This document shows, in pieces, positions 36,246 to 45,568 of a DNA stretch of 64,000 nucleotides (the first letter of the stretch is position 1; each line of letters begins with the position of its first letter). This DNA is from Escherichia phage HildyBeyeler: sequence record MZ501074. One strand, 5' to 3'. The position numbers and the translations under genes were made by a program. Below the pieces are notes generated by a model that worked only from the letters and a program-made list of their open reading frames with translations, did not search any database and had not been told where the DNA came from.

Positions 36246-36468
36246 ATATTAATAAATTAGAGAACAGCGGGCCGATTACGCTGAGTGCAGAATCCAAACC
36301 GGAGTGCATTGAATAGAGTCGGTGGGTTAGTTGTAAAACTAGTACACAGTGGGCGGCAATCCCGGTTAGTGGCTAGAACGTGTAAAATGGGGCGTCTGAA
36401 ACCTCTCCCCTAAACTCTTCTCTAGTTTATAAATAGTGGGGTGTGGAAATCACTTATGTAGTAACACT

Positions 36469-36540
36469 GCCGATCTAGTATAAACGGTATTATCAAGCCG
36501 TAACTGGTGGAAGATGTAGGTTCGAATCCTACGATCGGTA
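36469..36540 (+). other. tRNA-like minihelix element (7-bp acceptor-like stem plus T-arm; no anticodon arm found)
   Basis: GCCGATC at 36469-75 pairs with GATCGGT at 36533-39; GTAGG-TTCGAAT-CCTAC T-arm at 36516-32; interior does not fold into D and anticodon arms. Confidence 0.3.
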
Positions 36541-37041
36541 AGAACTGGATAACTGGTGCTTTTAACGTAAAAGCTTCCGAGGTTAGTTGCGCACTGCCTA
36601 AACCACGCGGTAGTTGGTTCCAGACTAACCAACCAGTCTGCTGAATAGTTTTATTACGATTTAACTATGTCCAGGCTAAAGAAGAACTTTAGAAGGTATT
36701 CTAGGTGGTGAAGTTTTTCCTCCATATCGGAGTAGTTTTTCAAGCTACCAACAAAGTGGGAAATGCTGACATGAGAGATGTCACTAATGGTGCACAATAG
36801 CACAGGTAATTCGCGATAACTCCTGTTGAGTAGCAGCAAAAGGCGGGAAGTCATGACCCCAAGCCTAACCGAGTCCTCAATATACCGCAGGACATAACCA
36901 CTAAGTCACCCTGACTTAAACTGGAAAATAATAGACGTTACTGTATTTTGTCTTGAAATACTTAATGAGTGAGACTTATGACTCTCCCGGTATCGTCTGT
37001 ATTTTTAAGAGTTTTTACGAGAGTTCTTAAAAATACTTAAA

Positions 37042-39019: not shown

Positions 39020-39097
39020 GGTTCTCAAGCTCATATGGTATGAGCACCCAGCTCATAACTGGAAGGTACGTAGGTTCGAATCCTCGGGGAGCCACCA
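39020..39097 (+). tRNA. tRNA-Met or Ile2 (anticodon CAU), CCA encoded
   Basis: Acceptor GGTTCTC/GGGAGCC with G-U pairs, D-stem GCTC/GAGC, anticodon loop CU-CAU-AA, TTCGAAT T-loop; T-stem imperfect. Confidence 0.6.
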
Positions 39098-40887: not shown

Positions 40888-40962
40888 GCACCTTTAGCTG
40901 AGATGGATTAGCGCTTGCCTGAAGAGCTTGAGAGGTTGGATCGTTACCAACGGGGTGCACCA
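40888..40962 (+). tRNA. possible tRNA-Phe (anticodon GAA), CCA encoded; non-canonical T-loop
   Basis: Acceptor GCACCTT/GGGGTGC and D-stem GCTG/TAGC are clean; anticodon stem has two U-U mismatches; T-loop AUCGUUA. Confidence 0.4.
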
Positions 40963-41399: not shown

Positions 41400-41540
41400 T
41401 TGCTGAAAGAATTGTTAAATCAATTCAGGCACGCGTAGGAACACTGTCTCCGTAATTGAAAGATGAGGCACGGTTTGGAGAGGTATGCCGCTACACGCTA
41501 CGGTGCTAACTCCGTCTAGGTGAAAATCCTAGTCAGCAAT
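41400..41540 (+). ncRNA. candidate structured RNA (141 nt) with tRNA-like termini
   Basis: TTGCTGA at 41400-06 pairs perfectly with TCAGCAA at 41533-39; CTAGG-TGAAAAT-CCTAG hairpin sits just before the 3' strand; D-arm-like GAAT/ATTC near the 5' end; no ORF. Confidence 0.35.
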
Positions 41541-41549
41541 GTAAATTTA

Positions 41550-41635
41550 GGGTCGTTGGCTGAACGGTTTAAGCGCCGGACTGTTAATCCGTATCCGCAA
41601 GGATAAAGTAGGTTCAACTCCTACACGGCCCGCCA
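41550..41635 (+). tRNA. tRNA with anticodon GUU (Asn-type) but a long variable arm, CCA encoded
   Basis: Acceptor GGGTCGT/ACGGCCC, 3-bp D-stem, anticodon loop CU-GUU-AA, 15-nt extra arm with GCAA loop, T-arm GTAGG-TTCAACT-CCTAC, G73. Confidence 0.55.
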
Positions 41636-41737
41636 AATTCTGTGTAGAGTTAAGTAAACCGGTAGCCAACCAGCTATCATTGCTGACATCGAATTCAGCC
41701 ACAGATACCATTTTCATTAATAACTAAGGAAACAAGC

Positions 41738-41923
41738 ATGTCCAAGAATGTGATTGCGCAGCTAGAAGTTCATCGTGATAGCACTATCAACAATATTAAG
41801 TGCCGACAAAAAGATATTGAAGCTCAAAAGGCTGATCTTTTAATGAGTATTCGAGAGCTTAATGTACGAAAAGAGTTTCTTAAAGAACTTAATGCAGCTA
41901 TTGAAAAACTCAAAGCTGAGTAA
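41738..41923 (+). CDS. hypothetical coiled-coil protein (61 aa)
   Basis: AAGGAAACAAG RBS. Confidence 0.45.
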   Translation: MSKNVIAQLEVHRDSTINNIKCRQKDIEAQKADLLMSIRELNVRKEFLKELNAAIEKLKAE

Positions 41924-41932
41924 ATGAATTAT

Positions 41933-42009
41933 GCGACCGGGGCTGGCTTGGTAATGGTACTCCCCTGTCACGGGAGGGAATGTGGGTTCAAATCCCATCG
42001 GTCGCGCCA
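41933..42009 (+). tRNA. tRNA-Asp (anticodon GUC), CCA encoded
   Basis: Acceptor GCGACCG/CGGTCGC, anticodon arm CTCCC-CUGUCAC-GGGAG, T-loop TTCAAAT. Confidence 0.7.
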
Positions 42010-42026
42010 GATAAGGTAGGTTAGCT

Positions 42027-42185
42027 ATGGAACGTAGGGAGTTTACTCCAGAAGAGATAGAGCAGATAAAAGAATCTGCTATGAAAAATGCTAGAATATC
42101 TCTGTCACTGGAAGGTATCATTATTAGTGATGTAAACTTTGAAAAAATCAAAGCCATAGCTGATGAACTGGAAAAAGTAATTTAA
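42027..42185 (+). CDS. hypothetical small protein (52 aa) between tRNA-Asp and tRNA-Lys
   Basis: AAGGTAGG RBS; sequence MERREFTPEEIEQIKESAMKNARISLSLEG...; below the ORF-track cutoff. Confidence 0.4.
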   Translation: MERREFTPEEIEQIKESAMKNARISLSLEGIIISDVNFEKIKAIADELEKVI

Positions 42186-42186
42186 T

Positions 42187-42262
42187 ACATCCATAGCTCA
42201 ATGGTTAGAGCTACCGCCTCTTAAGCGGAGGGTTCTAGGTTCAAGTCCTAGTGGGTGTACCA
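42187..42262 (+). tRNA. tRNA-Lys (anticodon CUU), CCA encoded
   Basis: Acceptor ACATCCA/TGGGTGT, D-stem GCTC/GAGC, anticodon loop CU-CUU-AA, T-arm CTAGG-TTCAAGT-CCTAG. Confidence 0.7.
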
Positions 42263-42292
42263 AACAAACTAAACTAGCACGAGAAATATGCT

Positions 42293-42640
42293 ATGATTAA
42301 TGCTAAAGAAGAATTGTTACTTGCCCTAAAGAATACTAATTCTGAAGTTAAGTGTATTAAGATAGAATTCGGTTATTATGGGGACAAAGAAGTTTTGGTA
42401 TTACCCATAGGTTACACAGAAAAAGATATTGAAGATTTTCTAAATAATCTAGACTTTAAATATGATTCTGGTTTCGGTGGACAATTGCTTTATGGTAACG
42501 TATGGTTTACTGATGGAACTTGGTTAGAACGTGGTGAATATGATGGTTCTGAATGGTGGGAATATAAGACTACACCAGCAATTCCAGAGGAATGCCGAAC
42601 AATTAATGGTGAAGTAGATCGTACTTTACTATTAAATTAA
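42293..42640 (+). CDS. hypothetical protein (115 aa)
   Basis: ORF track. Confidence 0.5.
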   Translation: MINAKEELLLALKNTNSEVKCIKIEFGYYGDKEVLVLPIGYTEKDIEDFLNNLDFKYDSGFGGQLLYGNVWFTDGTWLERGEYDGSEWWEYKTTPAIPEECRTINGEVDRTLLLN

Positions 42641-42762
42641 CAAAATCTCAGTGCAGAACACGGAGCTAGCAATTCGGAAATGCTGACTCATGATAAGCTG
42701 CCTATGTACTTGCGAAGCGGTCGTGTCCAAGACTCGGACTCTTGCACTGAAAACAATCAAAC

Positions 42763-42883
42763 ATTCTAGCGTGGTTGATGGGGAAACCAGCTTGGCTAGG
42801 GCAGAAGCTCGTTCGATTCGAGTGAAAGAATGGTTCTCGTAAGTCCGCACAAGTGATAACAGGTTCGAGTCCTGTCTAGAATG
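42763..42883 (+). ncRNA. candidate structured RNA (121 nt) with tRNA-like termini
   Basis: ATTCTAG at 42763-69 pairs perfectly with CTAGAAT at 42876-82; T-arm-like ACAGG-TTCGAGT-CCTGT before the 3' strand; internal GCTCG-TTCGATT-CGAGT hairpin. Confidence 0.35.
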
Positions 42884-42897
42884 ACACTATAAAGTTT

Positions 42898-43012
42898 ACT
42901 TATTATGTAGGTTCCGATAGACCGGCGGGTCTATTCTGGCATTTAAGAGAGGTCTCGCAAACTTCTTTGTCAGCCGTGGGGTTGATAGCCCCCAGGTGGC
43001 CTACACAATAAG
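42898..43012 (+). repeat. 14-bp inverted repeat (13 of 14 pairs) enclosing about 87 nt of hairpin-rich sequence
   Basis: ACTTATTATGTAGG at 42898-911 pairs with CCTACACAATAAGT at 42999-43012; internal hairpins ATAGACC/GGTCTAT and GGGG/CCCC. Confidence 0.65.
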
Positions 43013-43032
43013 TAAATTTATGAAAAATGTAG

Positions 43033-43061
43033 TTGCTATTTAGCTTAATTCTCTGTATAAT
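43033..43061 (+). promoter_or_regulatory. sigma70 promoter (TTGCTA, 17 bp, TATAAT)
   Basis: Precedes HNH gene 43094-43669. Confidence 0.65.
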
Positions 43062-43093
43062 ATATTCTATAAAGTGAAGAGAAGGAAAGCAAA

Positions 43094-43669
43094 ATGGAAG
43101 GATTTAAACCAATACCCGAGTATCCAGAATACTTAGTATCTGAGAAGGGAGAAATATACTCCACTATCAGTAATAAATATTTAAAACCTACCATAAACGG
43201 GAGCGGCTATTACCACTTTGCAGTACGTGAAGATACTAATGAGTATAGATGGCTTCTGCTGCACAGAGTTATATGCAGGGTTTATGGTAATCTCCCCTCT
43301 TTAGATAGTGAAATGGAAGTAGATCATAATGATTGTAATAGGCTTAATATACTCCCTAGTAATTTAGTTGCCAGAGAGAAGAAAGATCATTACGATAAAA
43401 CTACACTGGAGAGAGGAAAAACTATAGGGGGCACTAGATGTATAGTCTGTAATAAGAGGATACACTCTGGTCGAGAATACTGCATAAATTGCAGTCCAGT
43501 TAAACAGACTAAATCCCCAGAGATTACCGCAGAACAGATAGAATATTGGGTATCAAAGTATTCCTGGACTAGAGCTGCAAAAGAGTTAAATTTATCTGAT
43601 AATGGTCTACGAAAACGGTATACTAAATTAACAGGTAAATCCCCAAAAGAAATTAAAAAATCAGGGTAA
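43094..43669 (+). CDS. HNH homing endonuclease (191 aa)
   Basis: HNH motif EVDHNDCNRLNILPSNL and zinc-ribbon CIVCNKRIHSGREYCINC; last 8 nt overlap the 5' end of tRNA-Pro. Confidence 0.75.
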   Translation: MEGFKPIPEYPEYLVSEKGEIYSTISNKYLKPTINGSGYYHFAVREDTNEYRWLLLHRVICRVYGNLPSLDSEMEVDHNDCNRLNILPSNLVAREKKDHYDKTTLERGKTIGGTRCIVCNKRIHSGREYCINCSPVKQTKSPEITAEQIEYWVSKYSWTRAAKELNLSDNGLRKRYTKLTGKSPKEIKKSG

Positions 43670-43739
43670 GGGCGATAAGGTACGCCACCTCGTTTGGGGC
43701 GAGGAAATCTTTAGAGTTCGAATCTCTATACCCTGACCA
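43662..43739 (+). tRNA. tRNA-Pro (anticodon UGG), CCA encoded
   Basis: Acceptor CAGGGTA/TACCCTG, D-stem GGCG/CGCC, anticodon arm CCTCG-UUUGGGG-CGAGG, T-loop TTCGAAT. Confidence 0.75.
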
Positions 43740-43745
43740 AACAAT

Positions 43746-43821
43746 TGCGGGTGGGAGGCATAGAGTTCTTCTTAGTCTCATAAGCTAAGTAAGTCCAGGG
43801 CAGTACTGGAACCCGCTACCA
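43746..43821 (+). tRNA. tRNA with anticodon CAU (Met/fMet/Ile2-type), non-canonical T-loop, CCA encoded
   Basis: Anticodon arm TTAGT-CUCAUAA-GCTAA, T-arm TCCAG-GGCAGTA-CTGGA, acceptor 6 bp with a U1-U72 mismatch. Confidence 0.45.
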
Positions 43822-43839
43822 ATTTCAAGAAAAACGCAG

Positions 43840-43868
43840 TTGCTTAATGCTTAATTTCTTGTTATAAT
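43840..43868 (+). promoter_or_regulatory. sigma70 promoter (TTGCTT, 17 bp, TATAAT)
   Basis: Hexamers plus ATTTATATAAATTGATG box; followed by about 330 nt with no ORF. Confidence 0.65.
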
Positions 43869-44204
43869 ATTTATATAAATTGATGCGAAAATAGCTGCCT
43901 AGATACCAGGTGTATGACGTCTACACTAGCAGAGCTACCGAAAAAGAGATCCCCAGGATAAACGTCGTAGCAAAATTAGTCTGGTATCCATCAATTTAGT
44001 TCACTAAGGTATTAGCTCGACCTAGGACTGGCTGCCAAAAAGCACGATCCCTACGATTCGGGAGAAGTTCTAGATTAGTCCACTAGATTCAGCGGCAACT
44101 GAATAGTGTATTGGGTTTGCGAGATGACGCAGTTCCTTCCGCTCGAAGCGAAGGTGCTGTAGTTACGCCGAGCTAATAGCCTTAGTAAACTAGAAGGAAT
44201 ATCT

Positions 44205-45198: not shown

Positions 45199-45450
45199 AA
45201 TCTTGAAGTATGCCGGAATCGGTAGACGGGGCTGCCTAAAAGGTTTATAGGGAACATCCACTCCCTGCAACATACCTCATAAAGCGGCTGAGATAAATGG
45301 TCTATCTCGTGAAGGTTCAAGTCCTTCTGCTTCTTGATACATCTATGGCTCAAAGTGTAACGGTGCTATTTGATGCTCTTGGTAAGACTTCCCCGACATG
45401 CGTTCGGGAGTAAGCTGCTAAGACTAGAGTAGAAGAGTTTCTGAGAGCCG

Positions 45451-45568
45451 CCACAATTGAAAATTCGTACTCGTCTTGAGCTGCGTGCAATAGGAGATAA
45501 CTTGATTAGTATTCTAGAACATGCTAATTGAGGATGGTTTCGCTAACCCTGCGAGTTTTCAATTGTGG
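45451..45568 (+). repeat. 13-bp perfect inverted repeat (CCACAATTGAAAA / TTTTCAATTGTGG) enclosing about 92 nt
   Basis: Arms at 45451-63 and 45556-68; the 3' arm runs into the acceptor stem of tRNA-His. Confidence 0.75.

What the first reader, a model, noticed from the sequence alone, without database searches (positions are those of the whole stretch)
42641..43020. Three consecutive structured, ORF-free elements after CDS 42293-42640
Three elements lie back to back. At 42648-42740 an 8-bp closing helix (TCAGTGCA with TGCACTGA) encloses a CAAGA-CTCGGAC-TCTTG hairpin. At 42763-42883 a 121-nt unit has perfect 7-bp termini (ATTCTAG with CTAGAAT) and a canonical T-arm before the 3' strand. At 42898-43012 a 14-bp inverted repeat with 13 pairs encloses stable hairpins. 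The 380 nt contain no ORF. Such long-range helices are unlikely by chance and suggest stable RNAs or a nuclease/recombination target.
Basis: seen in the sequence. Interest (0 to 1): 0.6.

Follow-up and report, generated by a model that had tools for sequence, protein, structure and literature searches.

The report
Known T5 small stable RNA genes
Two of the three elements are small RNA genes already annotated in phage T5 and BF23 (tRNA-like RNA2 and stable RNA IV), both of unknown function, and the first is a conserved but unproven spacer.

Summary
The window is the tRNA-gene region of a T5-like phage. Element 2 (42762-42886) is the orthologue of T5/BF23 gene rna2, annotated as a 'tRNA-like stable RNA with unknown functions'. 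Element 3 (42905-43007) is the orthologue of rnaIV, a 'stable RNA with unknown functions'. Promoter P13a follows it directly. Both annotations are in GenBank records AY543070 and AJ604530. Covariation supports both folds.

RNA2 is a tRNA cloverleaf whose 7-nt anticodon loop is replaced by a conserved module of about 55 nt. The module is a GGGY/RUCC helix closing a junction that carries a second T-loop hairpin and an invariant (C/U)GUAA-N-UCCGCA. I found the same architecture in tRNA clusters of unrelated phages. These include a T4-like Acinetobacter phage and contigs of 164-363 kb. It has no Rfam family of its own.

RNAIV is a four-way junction. Its 13-bp AU-rich outer stem lies outside the annotated mature ends and probably acts as a processing stem.

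Element 1 (42641-42761) is unannotated. It is nevertheless about ten times less variable than the adjacent ORF and also occurs without that ORF.

Verdict: real, but already known. Function remains unknown.

The parts
42641..42761 (+). Element 1: conserved, unannotated 121-nt segment between the stop codon of ORF 42293-42640 and RNA2. Candidate fourth small RNA or processing spacer.
   Evidence: It corresponds to the unannotated gap between T5.067 and rna2 in T5 (97.5% identity). It is found in 218 phage records, all at 90% identity or more. Nucleotide diversity (pi) of the core is 0.0125, against 0.13 for the adjacent ORF. It is present without the ORF in TrudiGerster and SB9. Fold z-scores are -0.7 to -1.4. 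No compensatory pairs were found.
42646..42656 (+). Element 1 terminal helix, 5' strand (TCTCAGTGCAG). Pairs with 42742-42752 (TTGCACTGAAA).
   Evidence: RNAalifold consensus. The helix is 11 bp in most relatives. The window has a C.A mismatch at 42647. The helix does not vary, so it cannot be tested by covariation.
42725..42739 (+). Element 1 hairpin GTCC-AAGACTC-GGAC.
   Evidence: The A89T and A90T variants in TrudiGerster and SB9 fall in this loop but would break CAAGA/TCTTG.
42762..42886 (+). RNA2 gene (tRNA-like stable RNA), orthologue of T5/BF23 rna2.
   Evidence: 96% identical to T5 rna2 over 125/125 nt. Annotated in AJ604530 and AY543070. Scores 140.5 bits on covariance model R1. All 30 of 30 model pairs form.
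42763..42789 (+). RNA2 acceptor 5' strand ATTCTAG (42763-42769, pairs with 42876-42882) and D-arm TGGT-TGATGGGGAA-ACCA (42772-42789).
   Evidence: Helices 1 and 2 each have changes on both sides in every pair.
42790..42854 (+). RNA2 extended 'anticodon' arm. It comprises a 5-bp stem GCTTG/CAAGT (42790-42794 with 42850-42854), helix GGGC/GTCC (42799-42802 with 42843-42846), an inner T-loop hairpin GCTCG-TTCGATT-CGAGT (42807-42823), and the junction strand GAAAGAATGGTTCTCGTAA (42824-42842). GCA follows helix 4 at 42847-42849.
   Evidence: Helices 3, 4 and 5 covary. The GGG/UCC pairs are invariant in 28 sequences. The AUG/CGU mini-helix varies only by wobble-compatible changes. The Rfam tRNA model aligns relative L131 with 55 nt in place of the 7-nt loop.
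42859..42886 (+). RNA2 T-arm ACAGG-TTCGAGT-CCTGT (42859-42875), acceptor 3' strand CTAGAAT (42876-42882) and tail GACA (42883-42886). No CCA is encoded.
   Evidence: CCA is encoded in some relatives (L006, L148).
42892..42904 (+). 5' half of the 13-bp AU-rich outer stem flanking RNAIV (AAGTTTACTTATT). Pairs with 43007-43019.
   Evidence: Invariant in 22 sequences. It lies outside the annotated mature RNAIV. BF23 retains it next to RNAIV despite a 209-nt insertion after RNA2.
42905..43007 (+). RNAIV gene (stable RNA), orthologue of T5/BF23 rnaIV. It forms a four-way junction. P1 is 42906-42915 with 42995-43005. P2 is 42916-42935. P3 is 42937-42976, with invariant loop CTCGCAA. P4 is 42978-42992.
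   Evidence: 95.1% identical to T5 rnaIV over 103/103 nt. The z-score is -4.7. 98.5% of cells are paired. Eight pairs have changes on both sides, against 0.9 in shuffles.
43007..43019 (+). 3' half of the outer stem (AATAAGTAAATTT).
43033..43061 (+). Promoter P13a (TTGCTA-17-TATAAT). It starts the next transcription unit (HNH ORF, tRNA-Pro and onward).
   Evidence: Best sigma-70 match in the region, 10 of 12. Homologous to the annotated T5 and BF23 promoter P13a.

Best explanation
The interval is the distal end of one early transcription unit in the tRNA-gene region of a T5-like phage.

Shown:
- It carries two small non-coding RNA genes already annotated in T5 and BF23.
- RNA2 (42762-42886) folds as a tRNA cloverleaf with a 7-bp acceptor stem, a D-arm with GG, and a T-arm with a UUCGA loop.
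- RNA2's anticodon loop is replaced by a conserved module of about 55 nt. The module is helix GGGY/RUCC closing a three-way junction that bears a second T-loop hairpin, a small AUG/CGU hairpin and an invariant (C/U)GUAA-N-UCCGCA.
- RNAIV (42905-43007) is a four-way-junction RNA.

Inferred:
- Both RNAs are cut out of a polycistronic tRNA/ORF precursor.
- RNA2 is probably matured by the tRNA machinery, with RNase P at the 5' end, because its acceptor and T-arm geometry is tRNA-like.
- RNAIV is probably released by cleavage in the 13-bp AU-rich outer stem that flanks its mature ends. That would leave a 10-bp terminal helix protecting it.

Element 1 (42641-42761) is a conserved leader or spacer closed by an 11-bp helix. 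It may be a further small RNA or a processing element.

Function is unknown. My best guess, held with low confidence, is that RNA2 is a non-decoding tRNA mimic. It would bind or titrate a tRNA-recognising protein, such as a host anticodon nuclease or defence effector, or a processing or modification enzyme. This fits the anti-defence role shown for other parts of the T5 tRNA region.
For: Identity:
- BLAST hit H15 and the BF23 and T5 records annotate rna2 and rnaIV at the homologous positions, with P13a after them.
- Identities are 96% and 95% over the full lengths.

RNA2 structure:
- In 25 to 28 distinct sequences, 89% of cells are paired.
- The covariation score is 0.62-0.71, against 0.18 in shuffles and at most 0.14 for slid partners.
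- All six helices are supported.

RNA2 family:
- Members lie in tRNA clusters on the same strand, often abutting tRNAs.
- True members score 61-143 bits on model R1. Ordinary tRNAs score 20-40 bits.
- The Rfam tRNA model sees L131 and L153 as tRNAs with a 55-nt insert.
- There is only one hit in 185,579 bacterial species genomes, on a tRNA-rich 167-kb contig.

RNAIV:
- The z-score is -4.7.
- Eight compensatory pairs are seen, against 0.9 expected. Many conserved G.U pairs fix the strand.
- The outer stem is kept with RNAIV across the BF23 insertion.

Element 1: low diversity, and independence from the ORF.

Context: an approximately 8-kb tRNA-rich region of T5/SP15 can be deleted, and it carries anti-retron functions (PMC11555353).
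Against: - No expression, end-mapping or stability data could be examined. 'Stable RNA' rests on GenBank notes.
- RNA2's MFE is no better than shuffles (z = 0.0).
- RNase P and RNase III involvement is inferred from geometry only. The annotated RNAIV ends give roughly a 1-nt overhang, not the 2-nt overhang typical of RNase III.
- The decoy function is speculative. In the retron experiments the activity mapped to tRNA-Tyr and ORF75, not to these RNAs.
- Element 1 has no covariation and a chance-level fold.
- Several relatives have no spacer at all between tRNA-Lys and RNA2.
Confidence: 0.85

Rival explanations
1. Element 1 is not a separate functional RNA. It is only the leader or spacer upstream of RNA2, and its terminal helix is incidental or at most a processing aid. 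On this view only two structured elements are present, not three.
For: - The z-scores are -0.7 to -1.4 and the ensemble is ill-defined.
- An 8-bp repeat occurs in 32% of shuffles.
- None of 36 predicted pairs is compensatory.
- T5 and BF23, whose curators listed eight other stable RNAs, do not annotate it.
- It is absent from many relatives. Some have RNA2 9-10 nt after tRNA-Lys(CUU), and others carry unrelated spacers.
Against: - Diversity of the core is 0.0125, similar to RNA2 (0.019). That is about ten times lower than the adjacent ORF, even at codon positions 1 and 2 (0.096).
- It is kept next to RNA2 in Epseptimaviruses that lack the ORF.
- Polymorphic sites fall almost entirely in unpaired positions of the consensus fold.
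- The terminal helix is 11 bp in most phages.
- A different spacer type at the same place also has a closing helix, with one compensatory change.
Confidence: 0.5
2. RNA2 is a tRNA gene with an intervening sequence. Removing about 48 nt from the module would leave a 7-nt loop, N-U-C-C-G-C-A, with anticodon CCG (Arg), and so a decoding tRNA.
For: - The Rfam tRNA model passes its gathering score on two family members when a 55-nt insert is allowed.
- UCCGCA directly before the 3' strand of the stem is invariant.
- Some members encode CCA.
Against: - ARAGORN's intron calls are inconsistent (Phe, Arg, SeC, Ser), occur in only 7 of 25 members, and find none in the window.
- Position 37 would be C, whereas tRNAs have a purine there (established tRNA knowledge).
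- The putative anticodon is paired in covariation-supported helix 4.
- The known bacterial and phage tRNA introns are group I introns several-fold longer than 48 nt (my own knowledge).
- T5 annotates the full 125 nt as the stable species.
Confidence: 0.05
3. The inverted repeats act at the DNA level, as a cruciform, a protein-binding site, or a homing-endonuclease or recombination target.
For: - The region is an indel hotspot. Variable features include ORF T5.067, tRNA-Gly and the HNH gene at 43094-43669.
- The outer AT-rich repeat of element 3 is invariant and lies next to a promoter.
Against: - Helices contain many conserved G.U pairs: 5-128, 23-110, 24-109, 27-46, 58-78 and others in RNAIV, and the invariant G.U in RNA2 helix 4. 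These are mismatches in DNA or on the other strand.
- Compensatory changes preserve RNA pairing.
- The RNA2 architecture is conserved across unrelated phages whose sequences differ.
- No direct test of a DNA-level role was possible.
Confidence: 0.04
4. The interval encodes small proteins, as some automated annotations imply with 'hypothetical protein' calls over this region.
For: - ORFs of 72 aa (- strand, 42632-42850), 50 aa and 29 aa exist.
- Several GenBank records annotate hypothetical proteins here.
Against: - The 72-aa frame has an in-frame stop in T5 and is broken in TrudiGerster, Salmonella phage 1-29, Yersinia phage R2-01 and Pectobacterium phage My1.
- Indels among relatives are not multiples of three.
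- The pattern of conservation follows RNA helices.
Confidence: 0.02

Closest known systems
Bacteriophage T5 and BF23 gene rna2 ('RNA2, tRNA-like stable RNA with unknown functions'; GenBank AY543070 32959-33083, AJ604530 5701-5825)
   Same: Same gene. It is 96% identical over all 125 nt and has the same neighbours: ORF T5.067, the 121-nt gap, rnaIV and P13a.
   Different: Only a few substitutions. Like T5, the window lacks the tRNA-Gly(GCC) block that follows rna2 in BF23.
Bacteriophage T5 and BF23 gene rnaIV ('RNAIV, stable RNA with unknown functions'; AY543070 32838-32940)
   Same: Same gene. It is 95% identical over all 103 nt, lies 18 nt after rna2 as in T5, and is followed directly by promoter P13a.
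   Different: A few substitutions, mostly wobble-compatible or compensatory.
Canonical tRNA (Rfam RF00005)
   Same: RNA2 has a 7-bp acceptor stem, a 4-bp D-stem with GG in the loop, a 5-bp anticodon-position stem, a 4-nt variable region and a 5-bp T-stem with a UUCGA loop. It lies in a tRNA cluster on the same strand.
   Different: The 7-nt anticodon loop is replaced by a conserved structured module of about 55 nt. No CCA is encoded in the window copy. That copy falls below the Rfam gathering score, and ARAGORN does not call it.
Phage T4 species 1 and species 2 RNAs (rnaC, rnaD)
   Same: They are also small stable RNAs of unknown function at the end of a phage tRNA cluster, co-transcribed with tRNAs. 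rnaC also ends in a T-arm-like hairpin.
   Different: No homology was detected. rnaC scores 16.6 bits on the RNA2-family model, below ordinary tRNAs, and it lacks the conserved module.
tRNA-mimicking non-coding RNAs: the tRNA-like domain of tmRNA, and bacterial Y RNA (YrlA)
   Same: Part of the molecule copies tRNA, and the anticodon region is replaced by another functional part.
   Different: - There is no tag reading frame, and ARAGORN makes no tmRNA call.
- In YrlA the ends of the molecule form the Ro-binding stem, not the acceptor stem.
- No Rfam hit to either family falls on an RNA2-family element. The only weak YrlA match (L007 2758-2871, 22.7 bits) lies elsewhere.

Membership tests
T5/BF23 rna2 (tRNA-like stable RNA) | Full-length sequence orthology to the annotated gene | tested here: met
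   125 of 125 nt aligned at 96% identity to T5 rna2. Alignment to BF23.
T5/BF23 rna2 (tRNA-like stable RNA) | Same genomic position: after the T5.067 homologue, before rnaIV and promoter P13a | tested here: met
T5/BF23 rna2 (tRNA-like stable RNA) | Accumulates as a stable RNA of about 125 nt in infected cells | not testable with these tools
   Only the GenBank note states this. No paper in the searchable library describes it.
T5/BF23 rnaIV (stable RNA) | Full-length sequence orthology and position directly upstream of P13a | tested here: met
   103 of 103 nt at 95.1% identity. P13a lies at 43033-43061.
T5/BF23 rnaIV (stable RNA) | Conserved secondary structure on the + strand | tested here: met
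   98.5% of cells are paired. Eight pairs change on both sides, against 0.9 in shuffles. The z-score is -4.7.
Canonical tRNA (RF00005) | Cloverleaf with acceptor, D, anticodon and T stems, supported by covariation | tested here: met
   All four tRNA-type helices have compensatory changes.
Canonical tRNA (RF00005) | 7-nt anticodon loop with U33 and a readable anticodon | tested here: not met
   55 nt lie between the strands of the anticodon-position stem.
Canonical tRNA (RF00005) | Reaches the Rfam gathering score (29 bits) or is called by ARAGORN | tested here: not met
   The window copy gives an 18-bit partial match, no gathering-level match and no ARAGORN call. Relatives L131 and L153 do pass, at 44.8 and 40.9 bits.
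Canonical tRNA (RF00005) | 3' CCA and aminoacylation | not testable with these tools
   The window and T5 encode G-ACA. L006 and L148 encode CCA.
Intron-containing tRNA | A consistent anticodon and canonical loop after removal of the insert across family members | tested here: not met
   ARAGORN -i calls only 7 of 25 members, with four different identities, and none in the window.
tmRNA | tRNA-like domain plus a tag-peptide reading frame | tested here: not met
   ARAGORN finds no tmRNA. No Rfam hit.
T4 species 1 RNA (rnaC) | Homology detectable with the RNA2-family covariance model | tested here: not met
   16.6 bits, E = 0.06, below ordinary tRNAs.
Intrinsic transcription terminator | GC-rich hairpin followed by a U tract on the + strand | tested here: not met
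   No + strand terminator-like site in 41500-44000.
DNA-level target (cruciform or homing-endonuclease site) | Perfect Watson-Crick symmetry on both strands, with conservation independent of RNA pairing rules | tested here: inconclusive
   Many conserved G.U pairs and compensatory changes argue for RNA. The invariant outer AT stem cannot be told apart by sequence alone.

The most novel reading that the evidence does not exclude
RNA2 may be the founding member of a widespread phage tRNA-mimic family that Rfam does not list as a family of its own. In this family a tRNA scaffold carries, in place of the anticodon loop, a conserved three-way-junction module. The module has a second T-loop hairpin and an invariant (C/U)GUAA-N-UCCGCA. 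The family would act as a decoy or adaptor for a tRNA-recognising factor, such as an anticodon nuclease of a defence system or a modification or processing enzyme. Element 1 may also be a further, unannotated small RNA of T5-like phages. The existence and breadth of the family are shown here. The function is not.
Probability: 0.25. Interest if true: 0.7.

Novelty: already known. Interest (0 to 1): 0.3.

Why it matters
The genes are not new. T5 and BF23 curators annotated RNA2 and RNAIV about twenty years ago. Their function is still listed as unknown, and Rfam has no family dedicated to either.

This work places T5 RNA2 in a well-defined, covariation-supported family. The family is found in tRNA clusters of unrelated virulent phages: T5-like phages, a T4-like Acinetobacter phage, and contigs of 164-363 kb. 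It is nearly absent from bacterial genomes. Phage tRNA regions have recently been shown to counter tRNA-targeting defences. A conserved non-decoding tRNA mimic in those regions is therefore a concrete candidate for an RNA-based counter-defence or hijacking factor. For annotation, it also explains why automated pipelines place spurious 'hypothetical proteins' over this interval.

Tried and rejected
- Rfam at gathering and permissive thresholds gave no family for any of the three elements in the window.
- ARAGORN, with and without introns, gave no consistent call.
- A first loose DNA pattern scan of IMG/VR returned mostly chance matches and had to be tightened.
- Homology of RNA2 to T4 rnaC was suggested by a shared TCGATTCGAG...CGTAAG. 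The covariance model did not support it, at 16.6 bits.
- A tmRNA PK1-like pseudoknot (CGAG with CUCG) in the module was considered. I dropped it because the pairing is not kept in other members, judged by inspecting the alignments.
- Resemblance of (C/U)GUAAAUCCGC to the 3' half of the E. coli tRNA-Tyr anticodon arm was noted from memory only. It is too short to test.
- Element 1 as a tRNA-like RNA: no hit with R1 at E = 1 or below, and none with Rfam.
- Element 1 similarity to other parts of the window: nothing beyond 12-mers.
- A conserved protein neighbour of the RNA2 family: a YqeY-like ORF sits next to the L024 copy, but this does not recur.
- Literature searches for descriptions of T5 RNA2 or RNAIV, or for T5 small-RNA sequencing, found nothing specific.

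Full report
**Context.** The window carries 21 ARAGORN tRNAs on the + strand between 36.4 and 47.7 kb, plus Rfam tRNA hits. BLAST of the 380-nt interval against phage genomes found 480 records, nearly all T5-like Demerecviridae. One hit is the curated BF23 tRNA-region record AJ604530.

**What the curated records annotate.** Under the match, the BF23 record annotates 'rna2: RNA2, tRNA-like RNA with unknown functions' and 'rnaIV: RNAIV, stable RNA with unknown functions'. Promoter P13a follows them. The T5 genome record AY543070 carries the same annotations. In T5 an unannotated 121-nt gap lies between CDS T5.067 and rna2, and 18 nt separate rna2 from rnaIV.

**Mapping onto the window.**
- rna2 maps to 42762-42886 (96% identity).
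- rnaIV maps to 42905-43007 (95%).
- The unannotated gap maps to 42642-42761 (97.5%).
- The T5.067 ORF maps to 42298-42640 (88%).
- P13a maps to 43014-43088.

Elements 2 and 3 of the finding are therefore known genes. Element 1 is the unannotated gap. BF23 and many Epseptimaviruses carry tRNA-Gly(GCC) plus about 147 nt between RNA2 and RNAIV. The window, like T5, lacks this block.

**Check of the observation.** All the quoted motifs are present.
- The 3' arm of the element 1 helix is at 42743-42750, not inside 42648-42740. It overlaps the quoted inner hairpin by 2 nt.
- By Markov shuffling of the 380 nt, a perfect long-range 7-mer repeat occurs in 80% of shuffles. An 8-mer occurs in 32% and a 10-mer in 2%.
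- Fold z-scores on the + strand are -0.7 for element 1, 0.0 for element 2 and -4.7 for element 3.
- Only element 3 stands out thermodynamically.
- Short ORFs exist: 29 and 50 aa on the + strand and 72 aa on the - strand. The 72-aa frame has a stop in T5 and is broken in more distant relatives.

**RNA2 alignment.** Alignment with divergent relatives showed a conserved core and obvious compensatory changes. The relatives were Salmonella phage 1-29, Yersinia phage R2-01, Pectobacterium phage My1, a Klebsiella K7-like phage and the T4-like Acinetobacter phage 133.

**More RNA2 family members.** Two pattern scans of IMG/VR recovered further members. Some lie on contigs of 164-363 kb. A covariance model (R1) separates family members, at 61-143 bits, from ordinary tRNAs, at 20-40 bits.

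**RNA2 covariation.** On 28 distinct sequences, 88.7% of cells pair and the covariation score is 0.708. Shuffles give 0.178 and slid partners give at most 0.134. Twenty-five of 30 pairs show changes on both sides (one search gives similar values on the first set).

**RNA2 structure.** The structure has these parts:
- a 7-bp acceptor stem;
- a 4-bp D-stem;
- a 5-bp stem in the anticodon-stem position;
- an internal loop;
- a 4-bp helix GGGY/RUCC, with three invariant pairs and one covarying pair (UA 18, CG 4);
- a three-way junction;
- a 4-nt variable region and a canonical T-arm.

The junction carries a 5-bp hairpin capped by a T-loop sequence (GUUCGAUUC). It also carries a 3-bp AUG/CGU mini-helix, which varies only by wobble-compatible one-sided changes, and the invariant (C/U)GUAA-N-UCCGCA.

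**RNA2 and tRNA tools.** The Rfam tRNA model aligns relative L131 end to end, with 55 nt in place of the 7-nt anticodon loop. The window copy stays below threshold. ARAGORN with introns allowed gives inconsistent identities, so I do not file RNA2 as an intron-containing tRNA.

**RNA2 genomic setting.** Family members sit in phage tRNA clusters on the same strand, often directly abutting tRNAs. Some encode CCA. The core pattern occurs once in 185,579 bacterial species genomes, on a tRNA-rich 167-kb contig. T4 rnaC is not a detectable relative.

**RNAIV.** Twenty-two distinct sequences were aligned. They support a four-way junction closed by a 10-bp helix. 98.5% of cells are paired, and eight pairs change on both sides, against 0.9 in shuffles and 0-3 for slid partners. 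Many conserved G.U pairs fix the strand as + RNA.

The terminal helix continues outward as an invariant 13-bp AU-rich stem (42892-42904 with 43007-43019). This stem lies outside the annotated mature ends and stays with RNAIV across the BF23 insertion. I infer that it is a processing stem. The P3 apical loop CUCGCAA is invariant. No + strand intrinsic terminator is present, and the best sigma-70 match in the region is P13a at 43033-43061.

**Element 1: distribution.** It occurs in 218 records, all at 90% identity or more. It is absent from many relatives. In some of these, RNA2 follows tRNA-Lys(CUU) by 9-10 nt. Others hold unrelated spacers.

**Element 1: evidence against a structured RNA.**
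- Its fold is not significant.
- RNAalifold finds no compensatory pair.

**Element 1: evidence for some function.**
- Among 20 distinct T5-like loci its core diversity is 0.0125, similar to RNA2 at 0.019. The adjacent ORF has 0.13, and 0.096 at codon positions 1 and 2.
- It is retained next to RNA2 in Epseptimaviruses that lack the ORF.
- Polymorphic sites fall in unpaired positions of the consensus fold.
- Its terminal helix is 11 bp in most phages.

I leave it as a candidate small RNA or processing spacer, at roughly even odds.

**Function.** No paper in the searchable library describes these RNAs. Azam et al. 2024 (PMC11555353) show that an approximately 8-kb tRNA-rich region of T5/SP15 can be deleted. 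They also show that it carries anti-retron activities, which map to tRNA-Tyr and ORF75. That makes an accessory, host-interaction role plausible for the neighbouring RNAs, but it does not implicate them. I propose that RNA2 is a non-decoding tRNA mimic that engages a tRNA-recognising protein. This is inference.

**Verdict.** Those two are already annotated in the T5 and BF23 records. What this work adds is the covariation-supported architecture and the wide distribution of the RNA2 family.

Noticed in passing
window 43094-43669 (+): An HNH homing-endonuclease ORF of 191 aa (NUMOD4 + HNH_3) sits between promoter P13a and tRNA-Pro. It overlaps the tRNA-Pro gene (43662-43739) by 8 nt. T5 has the small ORF T5.066 at this position instead.
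   Followed up: partly
window 42886/42905 junction; L001 3246-3472: BF23 and many Epseptimaviruses carry tRNA-Gly(GCC) plus an unannotated stretch of about 147 nt between RNA2 and RNAIV. The window and T5 lack this 209-nt block.
   Followed up: partly
L160 613-701 (Escherichia phage TrudiGerster) and L161 (Salmonella phage SB9): An unannotated cloverleaf-like RNA of about 90 nt lies between tRNA-Lys(CUU) and the element 1 homologue. It has the acceptor helix GGGGTCT/AGACTCC followed by ACCA. It stands where the window has ORF 42293-42640.
   Followed up: partly
window 42293-42640 (+): The ORF upstream (phrog_3972, unknown function, no Pfam hit) is hypervariable among T5-like phages, with nucleotide diversity 0.13. 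The boundary to the conserved element 1 and RNA2 block at the stop codon is sharp.
   Followed up: partly
window 36413-37041, 41638-41710, 44010-44181, 45202-45563: Orthologues of the other T5 'stable RNAs of unknown function' are present. These are RNAX, RNA3 (100% identical), RNA2H, and the RNA1-RNAI-RNAIII block just upstream of tRNA-His.
   Followed up: partly
window 39020-39094 and 40888-40959 (+): Rfam tRNA matches above the gathering score that ARAGORN did not call. By position they correspond to the tRNA-Ile2(CAU) and tRNA-Phe genes of T5.
   Followed up: no
L005 1137-1193 and L158 (spacer between tRNA-Lys and RNA2): A different spacer of about 55 nt occupies the element 1 position in Pectobacterium phage My1 and some Epseptimaviruses. 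It is also closed by an 8-bp helix, with one compensatory C-G to U-A change between the two phages.
   Followed up: partly
L024 3005-3505: A YqeY-like (GatB C-terminal-like, PF09424) ORF lies directly upstream of the RNA2-family element on a 164-kb viral contig with no tRNA within the fetched 10.3-kb locus. This does not recur in the other loci.
   Followed up: yes
L059 12400-12474; L159 7053-7127: ARAGORN calls tRNAs with anticodon CUA (labelled tRNA-Pyl) in two phage tRNA clusters that also hold an RNA2-family member. These may be amber-suppressor tRNAs.
   Followed up: no
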